64,000 nt of DNA from Desulfobulbaceae bacterium (GTDB lineage: Bacteria; Bacteroidota; Ignavibacteria; Kapaibacteriales; UBA2268). The stretch is taken from NCBI GenBank assembly GCA_018335795.1, contig JAGXRP010000021.1:86-64085 (forward strand), given 5' to 3'. The position numbers were made by a program, and so were the translations under genes. The notes under the pieces were generated by a model. The model worked only from the letters and a program-made list of their open reading frames with translations, made no database searches and was not told the origin of the DNA. Positions 1 through 58,089 of the stretch are shown here, in pieces. The number at the start of each line of letters is the position of its first letter. Within the stretch, counting starts at the first letter, position 1.

Positions 1-1530
1 ATCGGCTGTGGCGACGGAAGTCGGGAAACCGTATGAGTCATAACTGTCATATCCATAAGCATAAGCTACAAATGGGTCTTTTGCACGAAGTTTGTAAACA
101 CCGTCGTATAATAATTTGATAGTTTTGGAATAATATTTTCTGCCATCCACATCAAAATCATTAAATGCAGTTCCCGGATTGCCGGAAAAAGCTTCGAGTG
201 GAATCCATCTGAATTGTCCGTCAAGAACTTCGGCAATTTCAATATCCTGTGGCATACCACCATCTAATGTAGCTTTGTAAACTAAATTAATGAAATTATC
301 TTTAAAACCAAATCCACCACGAATACCCGGTGTATTGAATACAATTTCAGTTTGGTATTGTTGAATAGGAGAAAGTTGCAATTGGAACGGGTCATTTTCT
401 ACACCGTCATCTTGTTGACCCGGATTAAATTGTACTACGTTTATAGCTTCATTAGCTGAAACAACCACAGGACGTGGGTTAGCGTCAAAACCGGCTCGAG
501 TTTCCACCCAGCCTTTGCCCATTAATCCACCCGGATTTTGTATAGTTAAAGATGGTAAGCCATCAAAAAAAGTCTGGGTCATCGGCTTTTTGGCAAATAT
601 TTTTATAATTGTATAATTCTTACGTGCCTGAATTGGTGTTACGTGGTACTTTTTACCCCAGACATTTTCGGGTAATTCCTGCTCTATAATAAAGTCACAG
701 GCTGCTATGTGCGTTGGAATATAGGCGCAGAAATTGCCGGACAAGACATTAACAGGTTTAGTCGCACTGATTGTACTTCCCGTTAGGTCATTAAAAGGTC
801 CTATACCGGGAATTAACCAAACGTCGCCTTCATTCAATGTGGCTCTCATGACTTCGAGAGCTCTTAGTGTATCACCACTTAAAAGTGGGACCATCATGTT
901 TTCGAAGCCGCCAAGCCGGAATGTTACTTTTGTATTATCGTAAACACCAACAATACTTGTATATGAGGGTAGGAATTGTGATGTGTTATTAGTCGGGTCT
1001 GCGTAAGAGGCAACCTGATATTTTTGTCCTAAAGAACTAACAGGTAGTGCCAAATAACCGTCTGATGTATATTTATATCTTGTAACGCCATAAACAACAA
1101 TCGGATAATCCGCAGATAGTTTGATTGCTCTGCCTTCCCAAACTTGAGCAGGCTGCGGTCTTATGGGTAAGCCCCCACTACCTTTTGAATAGGCTTGACC
1201 TTCGGTTACCGGCAAAATAAACTCGATAACGTCATTTGGTACTGTAACTTTCTGTCTGAAAATTGCCAGACCCGGTATCTCTAATGTTACAGTAGTAGCA
1301 ACAGCAGATGATACATAAAGACGAAGTGAGTTGTTCGGACCCGGGTCTTCCCAACATGGGTGGAAAGTTACCCAGAACAATGTTCCGGCATTGTTTGAGC
1401 CTAACAATTGCGGCAAATTAGACTTGAAATCATCGACACCAGCTTCTCCTGATTGTGCCATCATATTCATCGTTCCTATCAGAACGAATACAAGCAGCAA
1501 GACTGCAAACTTGTTAAGTAAATTCTTCAT
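1..1530 (-). CDS. IgGFc-binding-domain secreted protein/adhesin (3' part runs off the window start; absent from ORF track)
   Basis: Manual translation from ATG at 1530 (GAGG upstream) is open to base 1: MKNLLNKFAVLLLVFVLIGTMNMMAQ...NAGTLFWVTFHPCWED...YGVTRYKYTSDGYLALPVSSLGQKY...YAYGYDSYDSYGFPT. Signal peptide plus IgGFc-binding-type motifs shared with 37329..39743. Confidence 0.8.
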   Translation of the reverse strand, partial: MKNLLNKFAVLLLVFVLIGTMNMMAQSGEAGVDDFKSNLPQLLGSNNAGTLFWVTFHPCWEDPGPNNSLRLYVSSAVATTVTLEIPGLAIFRQKVTVPNDVIEFILPVTEGQAYSKGSGGLPIRPQPAQVWEGRAIKLSADYPIVVYGVTRYKYTSDGYLALPVSSLGQKYQVASYADPTNNTSQFLPSYTSIVGVYDNTKVTFRLGGFENMMVPLLSGDTLRALEVMRATLNEGDVWLIPGIGPFNDLTGSTISATKPVNVLSGNFCAYIPTHIAACDFIIEQELPENVWGKKYHVTPIQARKNYTIIKIFAKKPMTQTFFDGLPSLTIQNPGGLMGKGWVETRAGFDANPRPVVVSANEAINVVQFNPGQQDDGVENDPFQLQLSPIQQYQTEIVFNTPGIRGGFGFKDNFINLVYKATLDGGMPQDIEIAEVLDGQFRWIPLEAFSGNPGTAFNDFDVDGRKYYSKTIKLLYDGVYKLRAKDPFVAYAYGYDSYDSYGFPTSVATAD

Positions 1531-1904: not shown

Positions 1905-4556
1905 TTAATATTCGCCTTCATATTCTGTAAGTGGAGTTCTTACAATAACCTGAACGGTTCGATTGTAAAAACGTCCTTCGGGCAAATCGTTCGAATATAG
2001 TGGGTCTTCTTCACCAACACCATTACTACTCAGTGAAGAATATTTACCACCGGTTTGTTTGTTGATCCCTTGCTTAACAAAATCAGACCTTCTCCCTGAT
2101 AGTTTCTTGTTGTGGTCATACATTCCAACGATGTCTGTATGTCCTATTACTTCAATAACTGAAGAAGTACGGCATCTTTCGTAAACATATTCTTCCATGA
2201 TACGTGAGTTGATTGGTCCTGCGTTATCAGAGTCAAATGGGAAAAGAATCAAGTTGTAAGTTTCGCGTGTGGTATCAATCGTACCTTCGGTAACCATCCT
2301 TGTCGAAGATACTTGCATGACAGGAATAGTAACAGGGTCTGATTTACATTCGGCACCAGTTTGTGTTGTGATTACTAATTGAGCAGTGTAAGATAATTCG
2401 TCAGTTGGATATTCACGAGCCATGTTAGTCCAATTCCAATTAACTTTTTCATCAGTTAAGCCAACGTCAGTCAAAGTACGCCAGTTTTGGTTGTTTCTTG
2501 TAATTTCAATTCTCCTCTTAGCTACAAGTTGGTCTTCAATACCGTTTTTCATTTTCCAATTCATTGTACGTGGTTGTGGTTCTGTAATCGAACCGACGTC
2601 AAACACAGGCTTGACTACTTCCCAATCAGTACATCTGATTTCGACACGACGGTTTTCCTGAACGCCAATGCTGTCAATTCTAGTGCTTGTCGGGTGTTGT
2701 GGTTTGCCATGTTTACCGAGAGTCATGCGCGATTCGTCAATTTTCCATACATCTCTGAAGTAGTTATAAACTTTTTGAGCACGTGCTTCGGCAAGTTTAA
2801 CGTCTTTTTCAACTTCCATATCAATAGTTCCAACGATTTCGATTTTAGCATTTGGATTATTCGTAAGTCTATAACCATAAATGTTCATAACGTGGTAATA
2901 TTTATCGAGAGTACCGCCTAAAATAGTTGTGTCTGTAAATATTCCGGTTTGGTCATATGAGTCTAATAAGATGTATCTATCAGGGATAACCGAACTACCG
3001 GGCTCAAAGAAGACATAATTAAGTAGTGGATAAAGGTTCCAAGTCTTAGTTTCTTTCATTACAAGTCCTCTGAAAGAAGCTAATTTTGGTTGGGAAGCTT
3101 TAACCATACGGATGTATTCCGGTTCATCAATGTCAGCAACTAATTCGGGTCTCTGACCTAAAGTAATTGTTAAACGAACTTCGTCCGGGCGATTCACTTC
3201 GTCAGGGTCTTCAGTAGTACCCGGGCGTTCAATTCTTTGAACTACTGTTTTTGTACCGTATTTAGGATTGTAAGCAGTAACTTCAAGGTCAACGTATTTA
3301 AGCGAATCTTTTGGATTGCCATAATCTTGATTTGAAACTATTAGTTCGTGTTCTGTTTTTCTATTTGTAACGCTATCAATGACAGAGCGGCTGGTGTAAG
3401 GATTTTTTATGGTGATTGTTGCAGGAATAAATTCTTGAGAACATTCATCAACGACAGTTGTAATCAAATTTATTGCCTTGAAGAAAGAAGGTACAAAAGC
3501 CATGAATACATCAAGATTCCCTTGGAATCCTTTCAAATCTTCACGACGAGAAGAGAAATACAAAACGTCACCGGATGCAGGTAAAGAAATGAACATTTCA
3601 TCTTCTTTAGTATTAATCGGCTCGCCTAAGTTTTCGGGTTTACCAAATTTTCCTGATATTCCGTCCATCCGCGAGACATAAAAGTCCAACCCGCCAATCC
3701 TAGGTCTATGACCGTCTGAAGCAAAAAAGAGTGTCTGATTATCAGCGGCAATAAATGGAGAAAACTCAGTTCCGCTTGTATTAATTTCTTCTAAGTTCTT
3801 TGCAGGTTTCCATTCTTCGTTGTCATCATCCCATTCGCAATACCAGATATCCATGTTTTTCATCAAAGGAGTACCATTGCTGTTTGGACCTTTCCGTGCT
3901 GAAACAAAATATAATTTTCTTTGGTCGGGCGATATAGAAGGCTGTGAATCCCAGTTATCAGAATTCACATTTTTCCCCAAATTGACCGGACGCCCCCATT
4001 TATCGCCGTCAATTATCGAGCGGTAAATATCGCATGAACCTAATCCGTCAGGACGGTCACAAGCAGTGAAATAGAGTGTTTGTCTATCTGCGGCAATAGA
4101 AGCAGCACCTTCATGGAACTCAGTATTTACATTCAAATAACCAAGTCCTGTAAGAACGTCAATGTTATATGGTTCAAAAAACACAGTATCTAATCTGTCA
4201 TTTTTCTTTGCTGCCCAAAAGTCATGCGACGGATTATTATCTTCGCCAAGTTTACTTCCGGGTCTATTCGACACATAAAATAATGTTCTACCATCGGCAC
4301 TAATAGTTGGTGCATAATCAACACCTGAGTGATTAATTATTGGACCTAAGTTAATAATGCGAATTCTCTGATTATCAATGATGCCTCCTTGTTGAGATGG
4401 ACTGTTGACTATCTCAGCACTCATCAAATACGCTTCTGATGTATTGAAAGCCAATAATGACTCTTTAAATTCCATACTTTGGGATTTCAAAGTCATAGAA
4501 CCGATTAGAAAATAAGCCATAATAAACCATAAGGCTCTGTAGTTGAAACTTTGCAT
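1905..4556 (-). CDS. OmpA-family protein with PD40/WD40-like beta-propeller and two OmpA-like domains
   Basis: Repeated PD40 motifs (APTISADGRTLFYVS, QPSISPDQRKLYFVS, SPFIAADNQTLFFAS). C-terminal GHTDIVG...NKKLSGRR...NRTV and an internal YVFFEPGS...LAEARAQKV...NRRVEI. Confidence 0.85.
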   Translation of the reverse strand: MQSFNYRALWFIMAYFLIGSMTLKSQSMEFKESLLAFNTSEAYLMSAEIVNSPSQQGGIIDNQRIRIINLGPIINHSGVDYAPTISADGRTLFYVSNRPGSKLGEDNNPSHDFWAAKKNDRLDTVFFEPYNIDVLTGLGYLNVNTEFHEGAASIAADRQTLYFTACDRPDGLGSCDIYRSIIDGDKWGRPVNLGKNVNSDNWDSQPSISPDQRKLYFVSARKGPNSNGTPLMKNMDIWYCEWDDDNEEWKPAKNLEEINTSGTEFSPFIAADNQTLFFASDGHRPRIGGLDFYVSRMDGISGKFGKPENLGEPINTKEDEMFISLPASGDVLYFSSRREDLKGFQGNLDVFMAFVPSFFKAINLITTVVDECSQEFIPATITIKNPYTSRSVIDSVTNRKTEHELIVSNQDYGNPKDSLKYVDLEVTAYNPKYGTKTVVQRIERPGTTEDPDEVNRPDEVRLTITLGQRPELVADIDEPEYIRMVKASQPKLASFRGLVMKETKTWNLYPLLNYVFFEPGSSVIPDRYILLDSYDQTGIFTDTTILGGTLDKYYHVMNIYGYRLTNNPNAKIEIVGTIDMEVEKDVKLAEARAQKVYNYFRDVWKIDESRMTLGKHGKPQHPTSTRIDSIGVQENRRVEIRCTDWEVVKPVFDVGSITEPQPRTMNWKMKNGIEDQLVAKRRIEITRNNQNWRTLTDVGLTDEKVNWNWTNMAREYPTDELSYTAQLVITTQTGAECKSDPVTIPVMQVSSTRMVTEGTIDTTRETYNLILFPFDSDNAGPINSRIMEEYVYERCRTSSVIEVIGHTDIVGMYDHNKKLSGRRSDFVKQGINKQTGGKYSSLSSNGVGEEDPLYSNDLPEGRFYNRTVQVIVRTPLTEYEGEY

Positions 4557-15665: not shown

Positions 15666-15700
15666 AAAAAAAAGGGGACACAGAAATTCCGTGTCCCTTT
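15666..15700 (-). terminator. Rho-independent terminator of the ECF/DUF4252 operon
   Basis: Minus strand GGGACAC-ggaatttct-GTGTCCC followed by a T-run. Confidence 0.8.
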
Positions 15701-15743
15701 GATGATTCAAAGAGAAATGTGCTGAATTAAGTTCAACGTTCTC

Positions 15744-16268
15744 TTATTCCAAATCCTTAATCTTGTCTGCACCTTTGATATTGAGCAATCTGCCGATTGT
15801 CGAAATCTGTTTGAGATTGATAGTGCCGTCCATCCAGATAATGACAGCATCTTGTGGACTAGAAACAGTCATCACAAAATCTGAGATTTTTTCGCCCTGT
15901 TTTTTGACCATAACCTTGATGTTGCTTTCTTTGTCATTCATATTCATGATTGTACTAAAGCCTGCACCGGGCTCGAATTTGCGGACATCTTTGATAAATA
16001 AAAGTCCTTCGCCGGGATTTTTAGATTTCCCTTTGGCAAATGATAAGACTTTGAGATTTTCGACTCCTGCCAAAGCATTTTTGAGAGCACCTGCGTCTTT
16101 GACATCCGACATTTCTGAAAGCATTACTGCAGGGTCGCTCAAACTAACAGTAGTGAAGCCCTCTTTGGAGCCAAACTTCTCGATTAATTTATCCAACGAT
16201 TCGTTTTGAGCTTGGCTGAAGAGAGTCGCAAGAAGAAAGAAAAAAGCAATGTGTATTAATTTTGTCAT
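15744..16268 (-). CDS. DUF4252 domain protein
   Basis: Signal peptide, FTTVSLS, VLIWMDGTINLKQI-like tail. Typical position after an ECF sigma/anti-sigma pair. Confidence 0.8.
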   Translation of the reverse strand: MTKLIHIAFFFLLATLFSQAQNESLDKLIEKFGSKEGFTTVSLSDPAVMLSEMSDVKDAGALKNALAGVENLKVLSFAKGKSKNPGEGLLFIKDVRKFEPGAGFSTIMNMNDKESNIKVMVKKQGEKISDFVMTVSSPQDAVIIWMDGTINLKQISTIGRLLNIKGADKIKDLE

Positions 16269-16277
16269 GAAATACCC

Positions 16278-16814
16278 TTAATTATTATTGAAATCGTTAT
16301 TTTGTAAATTGATAAGCGAGAAAGTGCCCAGTCCACCGAGACCTTGCTCGACCATGTTTAATTTGTCAAGGTCGCTTGTAGCGGCATCCATACTTTCTGC
16401 TATTAGTTGCAAAGCTTTTACAGTTTCGTAATATACTTGTTCGGGGTCGCTTTCGTTGTGATAGACATTTTCCAAATCTTTGCTTTGCTGAAATACGGTA
16501 AAGAACAATGTAACGGCTATCAAAACAATAGCAGCGGCACTCGAATAGTACATATAGTTTCGAGATTTTACAATCTTGGCAGATGCTTCGTAACTATTAA
16601 TCGAGTTGATTAATCGTTTTTCGAAGTCATCTCCGGGGGCTACAATTGCAGATTCGGATTTATAGAATCTGAACTGCGCGGCTTCGGTCATAAGTTCTTT
16701 TGGAACTTCTGACTGTTCAAAAAATTCGTTGATGACGTTTTCTTCTTCCAAAGAGCTTTCGCCGTCGTAGAATTTTACAAGCAACAGCTTGATTTCATCA
16801 ATATTATGCTTCAT
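16278..16814 (-). CDS. Putative anti-sigma factor (single TM)
   Basis: LLVKFYDGESSLEEE N-terminus and TM YYSSAAAIVLIAVTLFF. Overlaps the sigma gene end. Confidence 0.7.
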   Translation of the reverse strand: MKHNIDEIKLLLVKFYDGESSLEEENVINEFFEQSEVPKELMTEAAQFRFYKSESAIVAPGDDFEKRLINSINSYEASAKIVKSRNYMYYSSAAAIVLIAVTLFFTVFQQSKDLENVYHNESDPEQVYYETVKALQLIAESMDAATSDLDKLNMVEQGLGGLGTFSLINLQNNDFNNN

Positions 16815-17331
16815 TGTAGTAATAATTATAATTGTTATTCAAAAATTCTCTTATTTTCTTTCTTGCTCTGGAAAGATTAACTTTCAATGTGTTGATATTC
16901 ATGTCCATTATCTCTGCAATTTCTTGGTAGCTTAGTCCTTCAATGTCTCTAAGTTGTACAATCATCTTCAGATTTTCCGGTAATTGTTCGACAACTTTCC
17001 CTACAATTTCTACTGCATCTGCTAATTCAGCCTTTCTGAGCGGCGAGATATCTCTTTCCATCAAATTTAACTCCTCAATATCTAAACCCGAGTGTACGGT
17101 CTGGAAATGCTTGCTTCTGAATCTGTCAATACATAAGTTCTTAGTCATAGCCATAGCAAACGCCTCCACGCTTTGTTTTTTTTCTAAAGATTCGCGGTTA
17201 ATCCATAATTTCATCATTACATCCTGGACCACGTCTTCAGCTTCGTCATGATTGTTCAGCATTCGCTTAGCAAATCTGAACAACCTGTCTTTTACCGGCA
17301 TAACCTTTGCCGTAAACTCGTTTATTTCCAT
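16804..17331 (-). CDS. ECF RNA polymerase sigma-70 factor
   Basis: LFRFAKRML...AEDVVQDVMMKLW (region 2) and LRDIEGLSYQEIAEIM...LSRARK (region 4). Confidence 0.93.
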   Translation of the reverse strand: MEINEFTAKVMPVKDRLFRFAKRMLNNHDEAEDVVQDVMMKLWINRESLEKKQSVEAFAMAMTKNLCIDRFRSKHFQTVHSGLDIEELNLMERDISPLRKAELADAVEIVGKVVEQLPENLKMIVQLRDIEGLSYQEIAEIMDMNINTLKVNLSRARKKIREFLNNNYNYYYNEA

Positions 17332-33251: not shown

Positions 33252-34949
33252 ATGAATAATAAACATACGAATATTGATAATATTTTTGATAAAGCTCGAA
33301 ATCTGGAGCCGGTTTTGAATGATAGTGAGGTTCGCGAACTCATTAGCACAAGTACCGTCAATCCGGTGAGTACAGGTATTTTTAATTACGGAGTAAATAA
33401 AATGACTATATTAAGTTCAATGACAGCTCTTGTCGTATCAGGATTGCTACTATTCAATGTAATTGATTCTGATAAACAAGAACCTACAAATAACAAGGCT
33501 ACTGTTGAATTTTCAACTGCAAAATCGAACCCCGTTGCAAAAGAAGAATTACCAAATGACGATGAGAAAGACATGAATAAAAGTAGAATTAAGCCTAATG
33601 AGCTTGCTATGACTACATACGACATTAATGATGACATCGAATTACCCAAAAAAACTGACAAAATTAACGGAATAAATACAATTACATTACCATATAAAGA
33701 TTTAGATTTATACAATATCAAATTCGACACGAAAACTAAAAATTATGAAGTAATTAGTGGGAAGATGCGAATTGCTATTAGTCCGGATATAAAAACACAA
33801 TTTATTGCGAACTCAGAAGATATTGATCTCGATAAAACAATAGTTCCAAAATTAATTACCTCAGCAAATGGTAACGTAAAAATTGCTTTTTTGACTAATA
33901 ATAATGACATTAGCCCTGAGTGGGAGGAAAATAATCCTAATCAAGTGCTTTATACTGAAAGAGTTGATGACCTTTCATTATTAAGTGATGTAAGCCTTGA
34001 TGATTTATTGCCACTAGAACAAATTAATCCATATACTCTTGATTCACTAATTTCAGCTTGGGGAAATTCCGATAACTTGGGTAAATTCGAAATTGATAGA
34101 AGTAAATTATCAGTGCATATGAACAAATTTAATTTAAATGATAACCTGAATTTAGATTCATCTAATTTTGAAAATTTCGAGTTTGAATTTGATTTTAGTA
34201 ACTTTGATAGTAGTTTGAATAAAATTATGATTTTCCAAAGCGATTCATTGCGATTCAACTCAAGTAATATACAAATTGATTTGAATAATTTGGACAGCAT
34301 AATCAACAAGAAAATAGAGCAAAAAATAGTAATTAAACGCCAAAATAACGAATCAAATATTGACTCATTAGGTGAGTCGAAAATGGATAAAATTCACAGA
34401 ATGATGCCCAAAGACAAATTTTCGCATCTTGATAATCGCCTTAAAATGATGACTGAATTGACTGTCAATAAATTAATTCCTGTCCGATTTGATGTTCCGG
34501 ATGGCGGCGCAGACTTAATCTTCTGGTTTGAACCGACAGATGAACTACTCGAAGTCGTGCCGGATAACATCAAATCACAGGTCGCAGCCGAGATTGAAGC
34601 GATTAACAGCAGCGAAGATATTTGCAAAGCGGCACCTGAGACAGGTTCCGAGACTATAATGGACGTTTGGCGTTCGTGTAGTGGTGCAGTCGAAAACATG
34701 ATGGTTTATCCAAATCCTACAAATGGTCCGGTTTCTGTCAATTTCCAATTGAAAGAGGACAGAAAAGTGAAACTTTCGATTCATGACCTTACAGGGAAAT
34801 TATTGATGACACTATCACCGGAAACACTAATTCGCAAAGGCGAATTCCGCGAGAATTTCAATTTGAACAAGTTAACTCCCGGAATGTATTTGCTCGTAGC
34901 CCAAACACACTACGGCGAACAAACTTTGCAACGCATAGTTATTGAATAA
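33252..34949 (+). CDS. Single-pass anti-sigma-like protein with a C-terminal T9SS sorting domain
   Basis: About 50-aa soluble N-terminus, then TM MTILSSMTALVVSGLLLFNVI. C-terminus VYPNPTNGPVSVNF...KLSIHDLTGK...LTPGMYLLVAQT...RIVIE. Starts 1 nt after the sigma stop. Confidence 0.8.
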   Translation: MNNKHTNIDNIFDKARNLEPVLNDSEVRELISTSTVNPVSTGIFNYGVNKMTILSSMTALVVSGLLLFNVIDSDKQEPTNNKATVEFSTAKSNPVAKEELPNDDEKDMNKSRIKPNELAMTTYDINDDIELPKKTDKINGINTITLPYKDLDLYNIKFDTKTKNYEVISGKMRIAISPDIKTQFIANSEDIDLDKTIVPKLITSANGNVKIAFLTNNNDISPEWEENNPNQVLYTERVDDLSLLSDVSLDDLLPLEQINPYTLDSLISAWGNSDNLGKFEIDRSKLSVHMNKFNLNDNLNLDSSNFENFEFEFDFSNFDSSLNKIMIFQSDSLRFNSSNIQIDLNNLDSIINKKIEQKIVIKRQNNESNIDSLGESKMDKIHRMMPKDKFSHLDNRLKMMTELTVNKLIPVRFDVPDGGADLIFWFEPTDELLEVVPDNIKSQVAAEIEAINSSEDICKAAPETGSETIMDVWRSCSGAVENMMVYPNPTNGPVSVNFQLKEDRKVKLSIHDLTGKLLMTLSPETLIRKGEFRENFNLNKLTPGMYLLVAQTHYGEQTLQRIVIE

Positions 34950-39747: not shown

Positions 39748-40422
39748 ATGGGCATTAATTACCTCAGAATCTCAGCAGTTTTAACAAAAGAACTAAAAAG
39801 CGAATTCCGGACACGCTATGCTATTTCCGCTGTTTTGCTTTTTGTGCTGACTACAATCACAATGATAATGTTTGCCACTGCGGGTGAAACTATTACTCCG
39901 ATGATTGCAGCAGGCATTTTGTGGGTAATTATGTTTTTTGCTTCCATGACTGGATTATCCAAAGTATTCGTGAGCGAAGAAGAGCGGGGTACTTATATTT
40001 TACTCCAACTCAGCTCCACTCCTTATGCAATCTATTTTGGGAAACTATTATTCAATGTGCTATTGAGCGCTTCGCTTAATTTTTTCGCCGTTGTATTGTT
40101 TTTCTTGTTTTTAGGCGATATAGAAGTAAAAAATCTAACCTTGTTTATTTCAACAATTGCCATAGGTAGTCTTTCGGTGGCTTCAGCTACTACAATAATT
40201 TCAGCATTAATTGCCAAAGCAAACAGCAAAAACGCACTTTTCCCGGTACTTTCATTTCCGATTCTACTCCCGATAATAATATTAGGGGTAGGTCTTACAA
40301 AAATGTCATTCGAAGGGATTGCATTTGAAGATGCAATGAAGGATTTGCAAATGATGGTAGCATATAGCGGATTGATGATAGTAGCTTCGTATTTCTTATT
40401 TGATTTTGTAAATAAAGATTAA
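39748..40422 (+). CDS. ccmB: Heme exporter protein B
   Basis: Multi-pass; KELKSEFRTR, GILWV..FFASMTGLSKVFVSEEERGT, LFPVLSFPILLP. Confidence 0.88.
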   Translation: MGINYLRISAVLTKELKSEFRTRYAISAVLLFVLTTITMIMFATAGETITPMIAAGILWVIMFFASMTGLSKVFVSEEERGTYILLQLSSTPYAIYFGKLLFNVLLSASLNFFAVVLFFLFLGDIEVKNLTLFISTIAIGSLSVASATTIISALIAKANSKNALFPVLSFPILLPIIILGVGLTKMSFEGIAFEDAMKDLQMMVAYSGLMIVASYFLFDFVNKD

Positions 40423-52313: not shown

Positions 52314-53912
52314 CTACATCTTCACAAACATCTGCGTCCTATTGCCGAGTCGCAGATAATACACACCACGATGAAGATGGGAAATATCAATGCGTTGTAG
52401 ATGTCCAACATCTCCAAGATGTTGGACATCTGCTAATTCAAGCACGCATTCGCCAAGAGTATTGAAGATTTGGACAGCGGAACCTTCCGAAGGCTCGAAA
52501 CCTTCGGAAGGTTTCGAAATTGTAATATATTCGCTTGCGGGGTTAGGGCTAATTATTGCGCTGATTTGCACTGATTCGGTGATGCTTGTTGGTTGATTGC
52601 AAATACTGCCGGTGCGGTGAATATTGTTCTGGAACATTGTCCAGTCGGGTCCTTGTCCGGTTCCTGCCGAAATTGCGTATGCTCTGCCGTAATTGCTTTG
52701 CCAATTGGGGTATTCGACAAAACCCCCAATGATGAAAACATCGAGTATTCCGTCGGCGTCAAAATCAGCAACTACCGGAGCATGGTCTATCGAAAACTCT
52801 TTCCCGATGTGGGCAGCAAGGTCAAGAGTCCAAATTTCTGAGCCGTCAATTCCACTAAGCGCTATTACTTGTCCGCCCGTGGTGCCGAAAATCACATCGG
52901 GCAATCCGTCGTCGTCAATATCGGAAAGTGCCGCTCCACGAAAAGATTGCTTGAAATCGGGGATATCATATTCCCACATTACAGTTCCATCAAATTTGAG
53001 TGCATAATAGCGATAGTAGCTCGAAAACACCATTTCGCATTTTCCGTCGCCATCTAAATCTCCGGCAACGACAGGCGAGCCGACATAGGAAATGGCTCTA
53101 AATTTCCAAATCTGCGCACCATCTCCGGCATTTATCGCATACAAATTGCCGTCGTAATCGCCAATTATCAAATCCAATTTACCGTCTTCGTTTACATCGA
53201 GCAATGTTGTGCCATGATAAACCACATCTGCCAAATCGAATGTCCACATTAGTACTTGGTCGTAACCGCGATATGCATAAACTTTGCTTTGATTATTTTC
53301 CTTATTAAATTCCCACGACGCTACTACGAAATCTAATTTTCCGTCACCGTCAAGGTCAACAATTGTCGGGGCAGTTTGAATCCATGAGTTTGTATCCACT
53401 TTTAAGTCCCATTTTTTAATGCCATCGCTTGCGTTGATACATATTACATATCCGCCGAATTGCCCGTGTAAAATCTCCAATTTCCCATCGGTGTCAATAT
53501 CGGCAATTGTAGGAGGTGAATCGCTGCCGCGCGTGAGAGTTTTCCATTTTACTTCGCCTGTTGCTCCATCGAAACAATAGGTGTAGGGATTGCAAGAACT
53601 TGCGACGATAACGTCCAGCAAGCCATCGCCGTCAACGTCGTAAATAAGCGGGGCGGTGTCATTGCAACCCTCCTGCCAATCAGTAGTATTGTACTTCCAG
53701 AGCAATGTGCCATCATCCAAATTGAGAGCATAAACCATGCTATCGTTGCGATAACACCCGAACACTACTTCCAATTTACCGTCATGGTCAAAGTCGGCGA
53801 GTGTGGATTGCCCGTAGGAATTGTCGTTCAGGTCGTACCACCACTTAATTTCAGGTACTTCTGCAACAGAATGGATTGCAATCAACATAAAAATTAGAAT
53901 CAAAATTTTCAT
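52314..53912 (-). CDS. FG-GAP/VCBS-repeat beta-propeller protein with T9SS CTD
   Basis: Signal peptide, eight D(F/V/I/L)DxDGxxD/E motifs, ISPNPASEYITI...IFNTLGECV...ISHLHRGVYYLR...MFVKM. Confidence 0.9.
   Translation of the reverse strand: MKILILIFMLIAIHSVAEVPEIKWWYDLNDNSYGQSTLADFDHDGKLEVVFGCYRNDSMVYALNLDDGTLLWKYNTTDWQEGCNDTAPLIYDVDGDGLLDVIVASSCNPYTYCFDGATGEVKWKTLTRGSDSPPTIADIDTDGKLEILHGQFGGYVICINASDGIKKWDLKVDTNSWIQTAPTIVDLDGDGKLDFVVASWEFNKENNQSKVYAYRGYDQVLMWTFDLADVVYHGTTLLDVNEDGKLDLIIGDYDGNLYAINAGDGAQIWKFRAISYVGSPVVAGDLDGDGKCEMVFSSYYRYYALKFDGTVMWEYDIPDFKQSFRGAALSDIDDDGLPDVIFGTTGGQVIALSGIDGSEIWTLDLAAHIGKEFSIDHAPVVADFDADGILDVFIIGGFVEYPNWQSNYGRAYAISAGTGQGPDWTMFQNNIHRTGSICNQPTSITESVQISAIISPNPASEYITISKPSEGFEPSEGSAVQIFNTLGECVLELADVQHLGDVGHLQRIDISHLHRGVYYLRLGNRTQMFVKM
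52399..52431. repeat. REP-like perfect palindrome, family A, in frame within the CTD
   Basis: AGATGTCCAACATCT-cca-AGATGTTGGACATCT, encoding DVQHLGDVGHL. Confidence 0.8.
52481..52513. repeat. REP-like perfect palindrome, family B, in frame within the CTD
   Basis: AACCTTCCGAAGG-ctcgaaa-CCTTCGGAAGGTT, encoding KPSEGFEPSEG. Confidence 0.8.
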
Positions 53913-56277: not shown

Positions 56278-56330
56278 TATAGTGTTTAATAAATATTTTT
56301 TTTTGTTTTTTTTTTGTATATTTGTATTAG

Positions 56331-56369
56331 TTTAATGAGGATTATATTTGGGTTCTAATCCTCATTAAA
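56331..56369. promoter_or_regulatory. 14-bp perfect inverted repeat at the cytochrome promoter
   Basis: TTTAATGAGGATTA-11 nt-TAATCCTCATTAAA. TATATTTG boxes at 56317 and 56343. Confidence 0.6.
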
Positions 56370-56411
56370 TTAATATAAATTCAATGTATAGAACCCACAT
56401 TAGGAGTTGTT

Positions 56412-57908
56412 ATGTTAAAAATTTTACTACTCTCAATTTTTGTATTATTTTTGGGTTATCAAAGTATGATAGCTCAAGAATTTGCCGGCAGTGAATCATG
56501 CAAAGGTTGCCACCCTGCAGCTTATGCAAATTGGAAACAATCCGGACATCCGTATAAAATACAAAAGCTTGATGGGACCAATGGTCCAACTTATCCTGTC
56601 CTATCTTCCCAAAAGACAATAGGAACAGTAATAAACTACACTTTGCATACCGGAGTACCTGAACCTCCTGAAGGTTTGCAATGGAGTGAAATTAGCTTTG
56701 TTCTTGGTGGCTATTGGTCAAATGCTCGCTTCTTAGACAAAGAAGGGTACTTAATCTGGGGAGCAAAACGCCAATATAACCTTGCTACTAGAAAGTGGGT
56801 AAATTATACACAAGCCGATCCCGGGAAAGGGTCATATTCTTACAGTTGCTATCGTTGCCATACAACGGGACCAAGCAAAGAAAAAACACCCGCATTTGAA
56901 GCATATCCCGGTATACAAGGAAGTTGGGCTGAGGCTGGCATTGGATGTGAAGGTTGTCACGGACCAGCAAAATCTCATGTTTCAAATCCTGGTCAGAAAC
57001 CAAGCATAAATCGCGAATGTCTTCCTTGCCATGCTCGTGACAGAGACTTCGAAACAACTACTTATACATGGAATAAAAGAGTTGAATGGCAATCAAGAAC
57101 AGTCAGCGATGTAGCAACCGGTTTTATTCGTCACCGTGAGCAAGGCGATATGATGCTTGCTTCAAAACATGGTGAAATGGGCTTCAATTGTGCAACTTGC
57201 CATGACCCACATAAAGGCGTTTATTTCAATTTAGGTGGAATTAAACCAAGTGCAAGTTGTGAAAATTGCCACACAAATAAAACTATAGTGGGACATGAAT
57301 TTTCAAAAACAAACGCTTCATGTATTGATTGCCACATGCCAAAAGCGGCAAGAAATGGTGACCAATTATCGCCATATGTATCGGAACAAAGCGCACACTA
57401 TTGGAAAATAATTACTGACCCAATAACTATGTTTGAAAATCTGGAGGATATTTCTAATACTGCCACACCTCCTGCTACTTTCAAGTTCATCAAAGTTGAT
57501 GATAATGGAATATCAGGAACAACTTTGGAATACTCATGTTTGCAATGCCATACTGCAAAAGATGTTCAGTGGGCTTCTATTTATGCCAAAGGAATTCACA
57601 AAAACGGTATTACACATATAAATACTCAACCTGGAACTTCATCTGCTTATTCTTTAGGTCAAAACTACCCTAATCCATTCCAACATAGTACTACTATTAG
57701 CTTTATTTTACCAAAAGCATCAAATGTTACTTTAAATGTTTATAATGCTTTAGGTCAACAGGTAGCTGTACTTATTGACAATGTGTGGATGAATGGAGGT
57801 ACGCATAAAATTGATTTCCATGCAAAAGGATTACCTAACGGAGCTTATATATACAGCATTCAAGCTAATAATTTTGGATTTTCACGTAAAATGATTTTGA
57901 GTCAATAA
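56412..57908 (+). CDS. Octaheme c-type cytochrome with T9SS C-terminal sorting domain
   Basis: Signal peptide. Eight CXXCH motifs: CKGCH, CYRCH, CEGCH, CLPCH, CATCH, CENCH, CIDCH, CLQCH. Tail LGQNYPNPF...VYNALGQQV...LPNGAYIYSIQ...KMILSQ. AGGAG RBS. Confidence 0.92.
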   Translation: MLKILLLSIFVLFLGYQSMIAQEFAGSESCKGCHPAAYANWKQSGHPYKIQKLDGTNGPTYPVLSSQKTIGTVINYTLHTGVPEPPEGLQWSEISFVLGGYWSNARFLDKEGYLIWGAKRQYNLATRKWVNYTQADPGKGSYSYSCYRCHTTGPSKEKTPAFEAYPGIQGSWAEAGIGCEGCHGPAKSHVSNPGQKPSINRECLPCHARDRDFETTTYTWNKRVEWQSRTVSDVATGFIRHREQGDMMLASKHGEMGFNCATCHDPHKGVYFNLGGIKPSASCENCHTNKTIVGHEFSKTNASCIDCHMPKAARNGDQLSPYVSEQSAHYWKIITDPITMFENLEDISNTATPPATFKFIKVDDNGISGTTLEYSCLQCHTAKDVQWASIYAKGIHKNGITHINTQPGTSSAYSLGQNYPNPFQHSTTISFILPKASNVTLNVYNALGQQVAVLIDNVWMNGGTHKIDFHAKGLPNGAYIYSIQANNFGFSRKMILSQ

Positions 57909-57954: not shown

Positions 57955-58089
57955 TTAATTGGATACAATATGTCTGAAATTTATAAGTGAAGAATTCTAA
58001 TATTTCAATTAATTTGAAATATTTGAATCCTTCACTTTTTTTATACCATCAGAATTTTTCGATAATCTCTTCTTAATGACATTTTAACA

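What the first reader, a model, noticed from the sequence alone, without database searches (positions are those of the whole stretch)
56412..57908. Octaheme cytochrome c carrying a T9SS export tag
Seen: signal peptide (cleavage before Q), eight CXXCH motifs, no CXXCK, and a complete T9SS type A CTD. Established: c-hemes are attached in the periplasm (Ccm), and T9SS moves folded CTD-tagged proteins across the outer membrane. Inference: a holo-octaheme protein is delivered to the cell surface or medium by T9SS. That would be an extracellular electron-transfer or surface-redox route distinct from porin-cytochrome (Mtr/Pcc) conduits. No porin or quinol-oxidase partner is adjacent, and the gene looks monocistronic. 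I cannot confirm novelty without a search.
Basis: partly seen in the sequence, partly recalled or inferred. Interest (0 to 1): 0.85.

Follow-up and report, generated by a model that had tools for sequence, protein, structure and literature searches.

The report
Eight-heme cytochrome with T9SS export tail
An uncultured Kapabacteria-like sludge bacterium transcribes a gene for an eight-heme electron-carrying protein that ends in the type IX secretion (T9SS) export tag, which suggests an undescribed way for this bacterial group to place redox proteins outside the cell; secretion itself has not been shown.

Summary
ORF 56412-57908 (+) encodes 498 aa: a Sec signal peptide cut before Gln22, an octaheme c-type cytochrome domain, a short disordered linker and a T9SS type A C-terminal domain (CTD). 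There are eight CXXCH motifs, which hold all 16 cysteines, and no CXXCK. The CTD scores above both curated cut-offs and resembles solved CTDs.

The heme domain has the MccA/OcwA fold. It lacks MccA's copper-binding cysteines and the C-terminal helix bundle.

The heme-plus-CTD fusion is conserved. Of the 120 best homologues, 97 are eight-heme proteins with a CTD. They come from Ignavibacteria, Kapabacteria, Bacteroidia and Calditrichia. Some relatives carry a tandem 16-heme form with a CTD. More distant relatives of the module often carry a lipoprotein signal instead.

The gene has its own promoter-like element and terminator. Four sludge or digester metatranscriptomes cover it, while its direct neighbours are not covered. 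Seven of nine orthologous loci in other organisms have a two-component regulator next to the gene; this window has none.

Best reading (about 0.55): Sec export, Ccm heme attachment, T9SS export, then work as a surface or released extracellular oxidoreductase like OcwA. Secretion, the electron supply and the substrate are all inferred. Nine literature searches found no paper linking T9SS with multiheme cytochromes. I rate it a new variant of a known kind.

The parts
56317..56324 (+). TATATTTG, a match to the Bacteroidota-type -7 promoter element TAnnTTTG
   Evidence: Read from the sequence. The consensus is from my own knowledge. No transcription start site was mapped. The sigma-70 scan found no more sites than in shuffles.
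56328..56372 (+). 17-bp stem hairpin in the presumed 5' leader (wider inverted repeat 56320-56380). Its loop can also pair with 56389-56400, just upstream of the RBS.
   Evidence: RNA fold -22.8 kcal/mol, z -3.3, 0 of 200 shuffles as stable. Inverted repeats I1 and I3. Function unknown.
56402..56406 (+). AGGAG ribosome-binding site, 5 nt before the ATG
   Evidence: Read from the sequence.
56412..57908 (+). CDS of the octaheme cytochrome-CTD pre-protein (498 aa plus stop)
   Evidence: The identical protein occurs on 7 contigs from several metagenomes.
56412..56474 (+). Sec signal peptide, aa 1-21, predicted cleavage MIA|Q
   Evidence: Hydrophobic core followed by small residues. Gln22 is at least 90% conserved. 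There is no lipobox cysteine.
56475..57626 (+). Octaheme cytochrome c domain, aa 22-405, MccA/OcwA fold. The heme motifs lie at 56499-56513, 56847-56861, 56946-56960, 57018-57032, 57189-57203, 57258-57272, 57321-57335 and 57537-57551.
   Evidence: AF2 domain model: pLDDT 88.8, pTM 0.85. Foldseek: MccA E 3e-12, OcwA E 6e-11. Profile against PDB sequences: OcwA 1.3e-19, OmhA 3.8e-16, MccA 2e-15. The 8 CXXCH and 7 further histidines are invariant.
57615..57638 (+). Flexible linker, aa 402-409 (TQPGTSSA). Expected region of CTD removal.
   Evidence: pLDDT below 50 at aa 402-409 in the full-length model. The cleavage itself is an inference.
57639..57905 (+). T9SS type A C-terminal sorting domain, aa 410-498
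   Evidence: PF18962 37.1 bits (cut-off 27) and TIGR04183 39 bits (cut-off 23). Beta-sandwich fold that matches 8qb1, 8glk_D and 8glj_D. Invariant N418, PNPF 420-423, G448, G463, G477 and Y479.
57985..58044 (+). Intrinsic-terminator-like hairpin (57985-58037) followed by TTTTTTT
   Evidence: RNA fold -24.8 kcal/mol, z -4.7. RNA contigs stop by 57884.
39748..40422 (+). CcmB homologue (System I cytochrome c maturation), an accessory gene elsewhere in the window
   Evidence: PF03379 78.7 bits, cut-off 24.9.

Best explanation
The gene encodes a secreted octaheme c-type cytochrome.

Proposed path:
1. The Sec system exports the pre-protein, and signal peptidase I cuts before Gln22.
2. The System I (Ccm) machinery attaches eight hemes in the periplasm.
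3. The folded, roughly 43-kDa heme domain (MccA/OcwA fold) is recognised through its type A C-terminal domain and moved across the outer membrane by the type IX secretion system.
4. The tail is cut off in the disordered linker.
5. The cytochrome stays bound to the cell surface or is released.

Outside the cell it would act as a terminal oxidoreductase that exchanges electrons with extracellular partners such as metal oxides, humic substances, shuttles or other cells. This is what OcwA does on the wall of the Gram-positive Thermincola potens.

Shown here: the architecture, conservation of the fusion, the fold, transcription in situ, and the presence of a Ccm component.

Inferred: heme loading, secretion, the final location, the source of electrons and the substrate.
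For: - CTD: it scores above both curated cut-offs over nearly the whole model. It has the fold of solved CTDs, including ones caught in the T9SS translocon.
- Conserved fusion: 97 of the 120 best homologues are eight-heme proteins with a CTD, and 9 more are 16-heme proteins with a CTD. The CTD motifs are invariant across sequences that share only 37-40% identity.
- T9SS use in this organism: at least two other proteins in the window have Pfam-significant CTDs, at 33252-34949 and 52314-53912.
- Fold: only MccA and OcwA match the domain model. The best profile hits are OcwA and OmhA. OcwA is a cell-surface terminal reductase of a metal reducer (PMC6703420); I recall the same role for OmhA.
- Anchors in relatives: members of the same module in other lineages carry lipoprotein signals (42 of 122) or C-terminal membrane anchors. 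The CTD label changes at least 5 to 8 times on the tree. This fits interchangeable devices for placing the module at the envelope.
- Heme attachment: CcmB is in the window, and ccmCDEF lies directly beside the orthologues in L007 and L092.
- Transcription: 99-100% identical RNA contigs cover 56613-57884 in four sludge or digester metatranscriptomes, while both flanking genes have none. Coverage is comparable to the better-expressed genes of the window.
Against: - No T9SS core gene was identified in the window. A PorE-like ORF reaches only 137 bits against a cut-off of 600.
- No trans-outer-membrane electron path or quinol dehydrogenase is linked to the gene here.
- The best structural match, MccA, is (from my own knowledge) a periplasmic enzyme.
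- One orthologue nested in the CTD clade, P0087, has no CTD.
- Most distant relatives of the module lack a CTD.
- I found no experimental precedent for a c-type cytochrome as T9SS cargo.
- The tight link of most orthologues to a sensor kinase and response regulator fits an inducible stress or detoxification enzyme as well as it fits respiration.
Confidence: 0.55

Rival explanations
1. It is a secreted or surface enzyme rather than a simple electron conduit. One heme, by homology heme 2 (C146-H150), would have an open coordination site and turn over a small soluble substrate such as nitrite, hydroxylamine, sulfite, another oxyanion or peroxide. Expression would be induced by the adjacent two-component system in most lineages.
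For: - The closest fold is the sulfite reductase MccA.
- There are only seven invariant non-motif histidines for eight hemes. In MccA, OcwA and c554, heme 2 is five-coordinate, and OcwA reduces nitrite and hydroxylamine (PMC6703420).
- By my count from the alignment, invariant His241 aligns with the MccA copper-ligand cysteine at the heme 2 pocket.
- R106, N123, R209 and E243 are invariant.
- Seven of nine orthologous loci in other organisms have an adjacent two-component system.
Against: - There are no free cysteines, so an MccA-type copper site is impossible.
- There is no CXXCK.
- An extracellular enzyme still needs an electron donor.
- I could not read the model coordinates, so the open heme site is not demonstrated.
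- OcwA combines such sites with a conduit role, so the two readings overlap.
Confidence: 0.17
2. It works in iron handling or electron uptake rather than respiration. It could be a surface ferric reductase that solubilises Fe(III) for uptake. Alternatively it could be an oxidase that takes electrons from Fe(II) or from partner cells, as in interspecies electron transfer in digesters.
For: - In the window the gene lies convergent with a TonB-dependent receptor/DUF4249 pair.
- It is transcribed in anaerobic digester and sludge communities.
- The best named family for the linked kinases is the heavy-metal sensor kinases, although below the cut-off.
Against: - The TonB receptor neighbourhood is not conserved in the other loci.
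- The kinase hit is below the curated cut-off and only reflects a generic architecture.
- The direction of electron flow cannot be read from sequence.
Confidence: 0.13
3. The protein stays in the periplasm. The tail would be a non-functional or repurposed Ig-like domain, and the cytochrome would serve periplasmic electron transfer.
For: - The related MccA and NrfA enzymes are periplasmic (my own knowledge).
- A CTD-less orthologue exists (P0087).
- No T9SS machinery was seen in the window.
Against: - The CTD motifs are invariant across about 60% sequence divergence, and the domain scores above the curated cut-offs. A decaying tag would not do this.
- The same tag sits on other proteins in the window.
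- The fusion persists through the tandem duplication, which kept a single CTD at the very C-terminus.
Confidence: 0.1

Closest known systems
OcwA, nonaheme outer-cell-wall cytochrome of Thermincola potens (PDB 6i5b)
   Same: It is the best profile hit (E 1.3e-19) and a significant fold match (E 6e-11, TMq 0.53). It shares the N-terminal c554-like heme 1-4 block, the extra beta-sheet domain, and conserved distal histidines after heme 1 and heme 3. It is an extracellular terminal reductase (PMC6703420).
   Different: OcwA has nine hemes, a C-terminal three-helix bundle and forms a dimer. It sits on a Gram-positive wall and has no T9SS tail. Here there are eight hemes, no helix bundle, and a CTD. 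Identity is only 16-17%.
MccA, octaheme sulfite reductase of Wolinella succinogenes (PDB 4rkm/4rkn)
   Same: It is the best fold match (E 3e-12, TMq 0.56-0.58). It has eight hemes. Hemes 3-7 and several distal histidines align in sequence.
   Different: MccA is periplasmic, about 660 aa, and has a Cu(I) site made by two cysteines. From memory, one of its hemes is bound by a CX15CH motif. Here all eight motifs are CXXCH and there is no free cysteine. There is also no helix bundle, and a secretion tail is present.
MtrC/OmcA/UndA outer-surface decaheme cytochromes of Shewanella
   Same: The proposed role is the same: a multiheme cytochrome displayed on the outer face of a Gram-negative cell. There is a partial Pfam hit to PF22113 (41.9 bits, cut-off 30).
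   Different: Those proteins are lipoproteins exported by the type II system, with ten hemes in a staggered cross and two beta-barrel domains, and they dock on MtrAB. Here there is no lipobox, no MtrC-type fold hit, no adjacent porin, and export would go through T9SS.
Type A T9SS cargo (for example Flavobacterium johnsoniae NucA, Tannerella forsythia mirolase)
   Same: Sec signal peptide, a cargo domain, then a roughly 80-aa C-terminal beta-sandwich that matches TIGR04183/PF18962 and solved CTDs.
   Different: Known cargo consists of hydrolases, adhesins and motility proteins. I found no described cargo with covalently bound heme.
OmhA, surface multiheme cytochrome of Carboxydothermus ferrireducens (PDB 6qvm)
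   Same: Profile hit E 3.8e-16 over the heme 2-4 region. It is a surface-located cytochrome of a metal reducer (my own knowledge).
   Different: It is a larger protein of a Gram-positive organism, has no CTD, and only a partial region aligns.

Membership tests
T9SS type A CTD cargo (TIGR04183 / PF18962) | A C-terminal domain that scores above the curated cut-off and lies at the very C-terminus | tested here: met
   PF18962 37.1 bits against 27; TIGR04183 39 bits against 23; aa 419-495 of 498.
T9SS type A CTD cargo (TIGR04183 / PF18962) | Beta-sandwich fold like solved CTDs | tested here: met
   Foldseek hits 8qb1_A (TMt 0.61), 8glk_D (TMt 0.73) and 8glj_D (TMt 0.56). pLDDT is 84-96 over aa 411-498.
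T9SS type A CTD cargo (TIGR04183 / PF18962) | N-terminal Sec signal peptide | tested here: met
   Read from the sequence: hydrophobic core, MIA|Q, and Gln22 at least 90% conserved. No dedicated predictor was available.
T9SS type A CTD cargo (TIGR04183 / PF18962) | The host encodes the T9SS machinery (SprA, PorV, PorU, PorK-N) | not testable with these tools
Indirect support only: at least two further Pfam-significant CTD proteins in the window, and a PorE-like ORF below its cut-off.
T9SS type A CTD cargo (TIGR04183 / PF18962) | T9SS-dependent secretion with removal of the CTD | not testable with these tools
   This needs an experiment.
MccA-type octaheme sulfite reductase | Overall fold and eight hemes | tested here: met
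   Foldseek E 3e-12, TMq 0.56-0.58; eight heme motifs.
MccA-type octaheme sulfite reductase | Two cysteines that form the Cu(I) site at heme 2 | tested here: not met
   All 16 cysteines lie in CXXCH motifs. His241 occupies the position of one copper-ligand cysteine in the alignment (my own count).
MccA-type octaheme sulfite reductase | A non-canonical long heme motif (CX15CH) for the last heme | tested here: not met
   All eight motifs are CXXCH, and there is no spare cysteine for a longer motif such as CX15CH. That this feature belongs to MccA is recalled from memory.
NrfA/OcwA/MccA group | C-terminal long three-helix bundle | tested here: not met
   After heme 8 the models show only short helices, at most one 14-residue helix, and then the linker. 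The feature is described in PMC6703420.
NrfA pentaheme nitrite reductase | CXXCK catalytic heme motif | tested here: not met
   No CXXCK. PF02335 scores below its cut-off. Foldseek to NrfA gives E above 1.
MtrC/OmcA decaheme family | Lipoprotein signal, ten hemes, four-domain staggered-cross fold | tested here: not met
   No lipobox and eight hemes. TIGR03507 scores 21.6 bits against a cut-off of 209. There is no MtrC fold hit.
Porin-cytochrome conduit (MtrAB / OmbB-OmaB-OmcB type) | An adjacent gene for a large outer-membrane beta-barrel and a periplasmic multiheme partner | tested here: not met
   The neighbours are a permease, DUF4249, a TonB receptor and BshC. No other CXXCH ORF exists in the 64 kb.

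The most novel reading that the evidence does not exclude
Type IX secretion would be a general, so far undescribed route by which bacteria of the Fibrobacterota-Chlorobiota-Bacteroidota (FCB) group (Kapabacteria, Ignavibacteria, Calditrichia, some Bacteroidia) export fully heme-loaded multiheme cytochromes. This MccA/OcwA-type octaheme module would be their outer-surface or released terminal reductase. That would be a third way to display extracellular electron-transfer cytochromes, beside type II-secreted lipoproteins such as MtrC/OmcA and the Gram-positive wall cytochromes. It would have arisen by swapping a lipoprotein signal for a CTD several times.
Probability: 0.4. Interest if true: 0.8.

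Novelty: new variant of a known kind. Interest (0 to 1): 0.65.

Why it matters
Ignavibacteria and their relatives are regularly enriched on anodes and in iron-reducing and digester communities (PMC7399161, PMC11495043). How their cytochromes reach the outside of the cell is not known.

If T9SS carries holo-multiheme cytochromes, three things follow:
- The known cargo range of T9SS would extend to proteins with covalently bound cofactors.
- There would be a simple sequence marker (multiheme plus CTD) for predicting extracellular redox capacity in FCB genomes.
- The idea could be tested in a tractable host, Flavobacterium johnsoniae wild type against T9SS mutants.

The family is large: 521 clusters at 90% identity. 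The octaheme module matches 1,715 representative clusters.

Tried and rejected
Co-occurrence with sprA, porV, porU, the rest of ccm, or porin-cytochrome genes could therefore not be tested.
- The single genome-contig scan was dominated by the generic CTD pattern N[YF]PNPFNP. It returned almost only unrelated CTD proteins. Only L012, and weakly L018, matched the cytochrome part, so it gave no taxonomic survey.
- I looked for a conserved downstream partner. The roughly 200-aa ORFs after the gene in L006, L007 and L011 are unrelated to one another, and none has a homologue in the window. Only L007 and L092 share one, and it matches no family.
- I looked in the window for the orthologue-linked OmpR-type two-component system. 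Only generic kinase and NtrC-type similarity turned up.
- NCBIfam scans of the window ORFs that lack a Pfam hit found no T9SS core component.
- Model coordinates are not exposed to scripts. I could not assign the distal ligand of each heme or show an open site at heme 2.
- Cluster names for lipobox-bearing relatives were nearly all missing. Only Armatimonadota and Fidelibacterota labels appeared, so I could not test whether anchor type tracks host lineage.
- Nine literature searches that combined T9SS or type IX secretion with multiheme, cytochrome or extracellular electron transfer found nothing relevant. Targeted reading of Ignavibacteria, Calditrichota and sludge genome papers was also negative.
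Full report
**Observation.** ORF 56412-57908 (+) is open and gives a 498-aa protein. It has eight CXXCH motifs, starting at aa 30, 146, 179, 203, 260, 283, 304 and 376. All 16 cysteines of the protein lie in these motifs, and there is no CXXCK. In 200,000 composition-preserving shuffles no sequence had more than two motifs. No other ORF of at least 80 aa in the 64-kb window has a single CXXCH. The N-terminus (MLKILLLSIFVLFLGYQSMIA|QE) reads as a Sec signal peptide without a lipobox. Gln22 is at least 90% conserved among 46 homologues. From my own knowledge, this fits the Bacteroidota habit of a glutamine right after the signal-peptidase I site.

**The tail.** It matches Pfam PF18962 at 37.1 bits (cut-off 27) and TIGR04183 at 39 bits (cut-off 23), over almost the whole model, and it ends 3 residues before the C-terminus.

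**Structure.** The full-length AlphaFold2 model has pLDDT 87.1. It shows a compact heme domain, a disordered stretch at aa 402-409, and a seven-strand beta-sandwich tail. In Foldseek the tail matches solved T9SS CTDs, including the NucA and FspA CTDs caught in the T9SS translocon complex (8glk_D, 8glj_D) and the mirolase CTD (8qb1). A model of the heme domain alone (aa 22-405, pLDDT 88.8, pTM 0.85) has only two significant structural relatives in the PDB:
- MccA, the octaheme sulfite reductase (E 3e-12, TMq 0.56-0.58).
- OcwA, the surface terminal reductase of Thermincola potens (E 6e-11, TMq 0.53).

NrfA is not significant. A family profile against PDB sequences ranks OcwA (1.3e-19), OmhA (3.8e-16), MccA (2e-15), MtrA (2.6e-11) and NrfA (1e-5).

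**How it differs from those relatives.** The domain therefore belongs to the MccA/OcwA branch of the c554/NrfA superfamily described in PMC6703420, with three differences:
- All eight heme sites are canonical CXXCH.
- No free cysteine exists, so MccA's copper site is impossible.
- The long C-terminal helix bundle of NrfA, MccA and OcwA is absent.

**Heme coordination.** Besides the motifs, seven histidines are invariant (H46, 189, 241, 253, 267, 329, 396). That is one short of what eight bis-His hemes need. In MccA, OcwA and c554 heme 2 is five-coordinate, so an open heme 2 is a reasonable inference. I could not verify it because the model coordinates are not readable. By my count from the alignment, His241 aligns with one of MccA's copper-ligand cysteines, which places it near the heme 2 pocket.

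**Family.** The word-indexed search found 521 clusters. Among the 120 best:
- 97 have eight hemes plus a CTD.
- 9 have 16 hemes plus a CTD.
- A few have 7 or 9 hemes.
- Seven lack a CTD. Most of these have 14-16 hemes, and one of them is labelled Zixibacteria.

The names given by the sources place the CTD-bearing forms in Kapabacteria (79% identity, the closest), Ignavibacteria, Melioribacteraceae, Bacteroidia and Calditrichia. The 16-heme form is a tandem duplication of the whole module that keeps a single CTD at the end. The CTD motifs (N418, PNPF 420-423, G448, G463, G477, Y479) are invariant across members that share only 37-40% identity. This argues for a functional tag.

**The wider module.** An exhaustive search with the heme domain alone found 1,715 representative clusters at E of 1e-3 or better and 119 at 1e-30 or better. 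Only 18 of the 144 new representatives have a CTD. Many of the others have an obvious lipoprotein signal, and a few have a C-terminal hydrophobic anchor with a basic tail. I built a FastTree of 122 single-module members. On it the CTD label needs 8 changes, of which at least 5 are forced by well-supported branches. CTD forms are interleaved with lipobox forms. The window's protein sits in a well-supported 12-member clade (support 100) with 11 CTD forms and one CTD-less form (P0087). The tree is quick, and my lipobox test is a crude pattern. With that caveat, the picture is one heme module fitted repeatedly with different envelope-targeting devices.

**Context and expression.** In the window the gene stands alone. 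Upstream is a CitMHS/TrkA_C permease. Downstream, on the opposite strand, are DUF4249, a TonB-dependent receptor and BshC. A TAnnTTTG-type -7 element lies at 56317-56324. A strong hairpin lies at 56328-56372 in the presumed leader, followed by an AGGAG ribosome-binding site. A terminator-like hairpin with a T-run lies at 57985-58044.

The same sequence occurs in subsurface, sludge, aquatic and groundwater metagenomes. Four metatranscriptomes from anaerobic digesters and sludge contain contigs that are 99-100% identical and cover 56613-57884. None falls on the flanking genes between 53900 and 59300. Other genes of the window are also represented in those runs, and the cytochrome is among the better covered. 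So the gene is transcribed in situ as its own unit. Contig depth is only a rough measure of expression.

**Maturation and secretion capacity.** The window holds a CcmB homologue. In two orthologous loci ccmCDEF lies directly beside the gene. Two other proteins in the window have Pfam-significant CTDs (33252-34949 and 52314-53912). My family-specific CTD model also scores two more. No T9SS core component could be identified in the window. ORF 1905-4556 resembles PorE, but at 137 bits it is far below the cut-off of 600. The presence of the machinery is therefore inferred, not shown.

**A new point: regulation.** I examined nine orthologous loci from other organisms.
- Five have an OmpR-type response regulator and a CusS-like sensor kinase directly upstream, either divergent or co-directional: L006, L007, L010, L092 and L093. 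L094 (next group) has such a pair as well.
- Three have a single-domain receiver gene abutting the cytochrome gene: L011, L094 and L095. L011 and L095 also have a kinase and a sigma-54 activator just downstream.
- Two loci have none: L009 (the closest relative, Kapabacteria) and L012 (its upstream flank is short). The window itself also has none.

The kinases score best against the heavy-metal sensor family but fall below its cut-off, so the signal is unknown. One 16-heme locus also has a NapC/NirT-type membrane cytochrome 430 nt upstream. This is the only adjacent candidate for electron input that I found.

**Interpretation.** The most economical reading has five steps: Sec export, Ccm heme attachment, folding, T9SS translocation through the CTD, and removal of the tail in the linker. 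The cytochrome would then work at the surface or in the medium, like OcwA. From my own knowledge, T9SS carries folded cargo through a wide SprA channel.

Three problems remain:
- How electrons would cross the outer membrane.
- Whether the protein stays attached after secretion.
- What it reduces or oxidises.

Because a conduit is still needed, T9SS is better seen as the supplier of the outer component than as an alternative to porin-cytochrome complexes.

Rival readings, with my confidence in each:
- An extracellular enzyme that uses an open heme 2 (0.17).
- Iron acquisition or electron uptake (0.13).
- A periplasmic protein with an inert tail (0.10). The conservation of the tag argues against this one.

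**Novelty.** Nine full-text searches and five targeted readings found no paper that connects T9SS with multiheme cytochromes. A sludge secretome study predicts extracellular multiheme cytochromes in Bacteroidota but never mentions T9SS in its text. Databases already label these proteins 'T9SS type A sorting domain-containing protein' or 'multiheme c-type cytochrome'. Earlier notes of this scan report the same kind of fusion in at least 32 other genomes. Those are unchecked AI notes and not independent evidence, but they show that the theme recurs. I class the finding as a new variant of known kinds: a surface multiheme cytochrome and a T9SS cargo, combined. It is not categorically new.

Noticed in passing
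L006, L007, L010, L092, L093, L094 (OmpR-type RR + kinase beside the gene); L011, L094, L095 (single receiver gene abutting it): Most orthologues of the cytochrome sit next to a dedicated two-component system. It is either an OmpR-type regulator with a CusS-like kinase, or a lone receiver with a kinase and a sigma-54 activator. The window and its closest relative (L009) have lost or never had this link.
   Followed up: partly
P0075, P0078, P0080, P0081, P0083, P0085, P0086, P0088, P0089 (about 840 aa); P0121 (1398 aa, 32 CXXCH): Tandem duplications of the octaheme module occur. There are 16-heme forms that keep a single T9SS CTD, and a 32-heme lipobox form without a CTD.
   Followed up: partly
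L095:5670-7178: A membrane-anchored six-heme NapC/NirT-type cytochrome (PF03264, 34.4 bits against a cut-off of 24.1) lies 430 nt upstream of the receiver and 16-heme-CTD genes. It may be the quinol-side electron input for that variant.
   Followed up: no
L007:11748-12389 and L092:9681-10319: A conserved 212-213-aa protein (63% identical) directly follows the cytochrome in two Melioribacteraceae-like genomes. It has a signal peptide and a C-terminal aromatic residue, so it looks like a small outer-membrane barrel. It matches no Pfam or NCBIfam family.
   Followed up: partly
window 56320-56400: The leader hairpin (25-nt arms, 92% complementary) has an alternative pairing between its loop (56346-56357) and 56389-56400, just before the RBS. 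The Kapabacteria relative also has an inverted repeat, of different sequence, about 50-90 nt upstream of its start (L009:9907-9949).
   Followed up: partly
window 1905-4556 (-): An 883-aa protein with PD40 beta-propeller repeats and an OmpA domain. Its best NCBIfam hit is the T9SS component PorE, at 137 bits, far below the cut-off of 600.
   Followed up: no
window 39748-40422 (+): CcmB stands alone between an IgGFc-binding-domain surface protein gene and thrS. The other ccm genes are not in the window, so the System I genes appear scattered in this genome.
   Followed up: no
window 1-1530 (-) and 15700-17330 (-): These loci have the highest RNA contig depth of the window in the same metatranscriptomes. 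They are an IgGFc-binding-domain protein and a run of three small ORFs of about 175 aa.
   Followed up: no
L012 (CAYUZZ010000002.1): A 73% identical full-length homologue with a CTD lies on a contig of a metagenome-assembled genome (MAG) labelled 'uncultured Hyphomicrobiales'. This is probably a mis-binned contig, since the family is otherwise confined to FCB-type lineages.
   Followed up: no
P0087 (395 aa, labelled Ignavibacteriaceae, on a 285-kb contig): A natural CTD-less orthologue ends right after the heme domain. It is nested inside the CTD-bearing clade, so it is a possible secondary loss of the tag and a useful natural control.
   Followed up: partly
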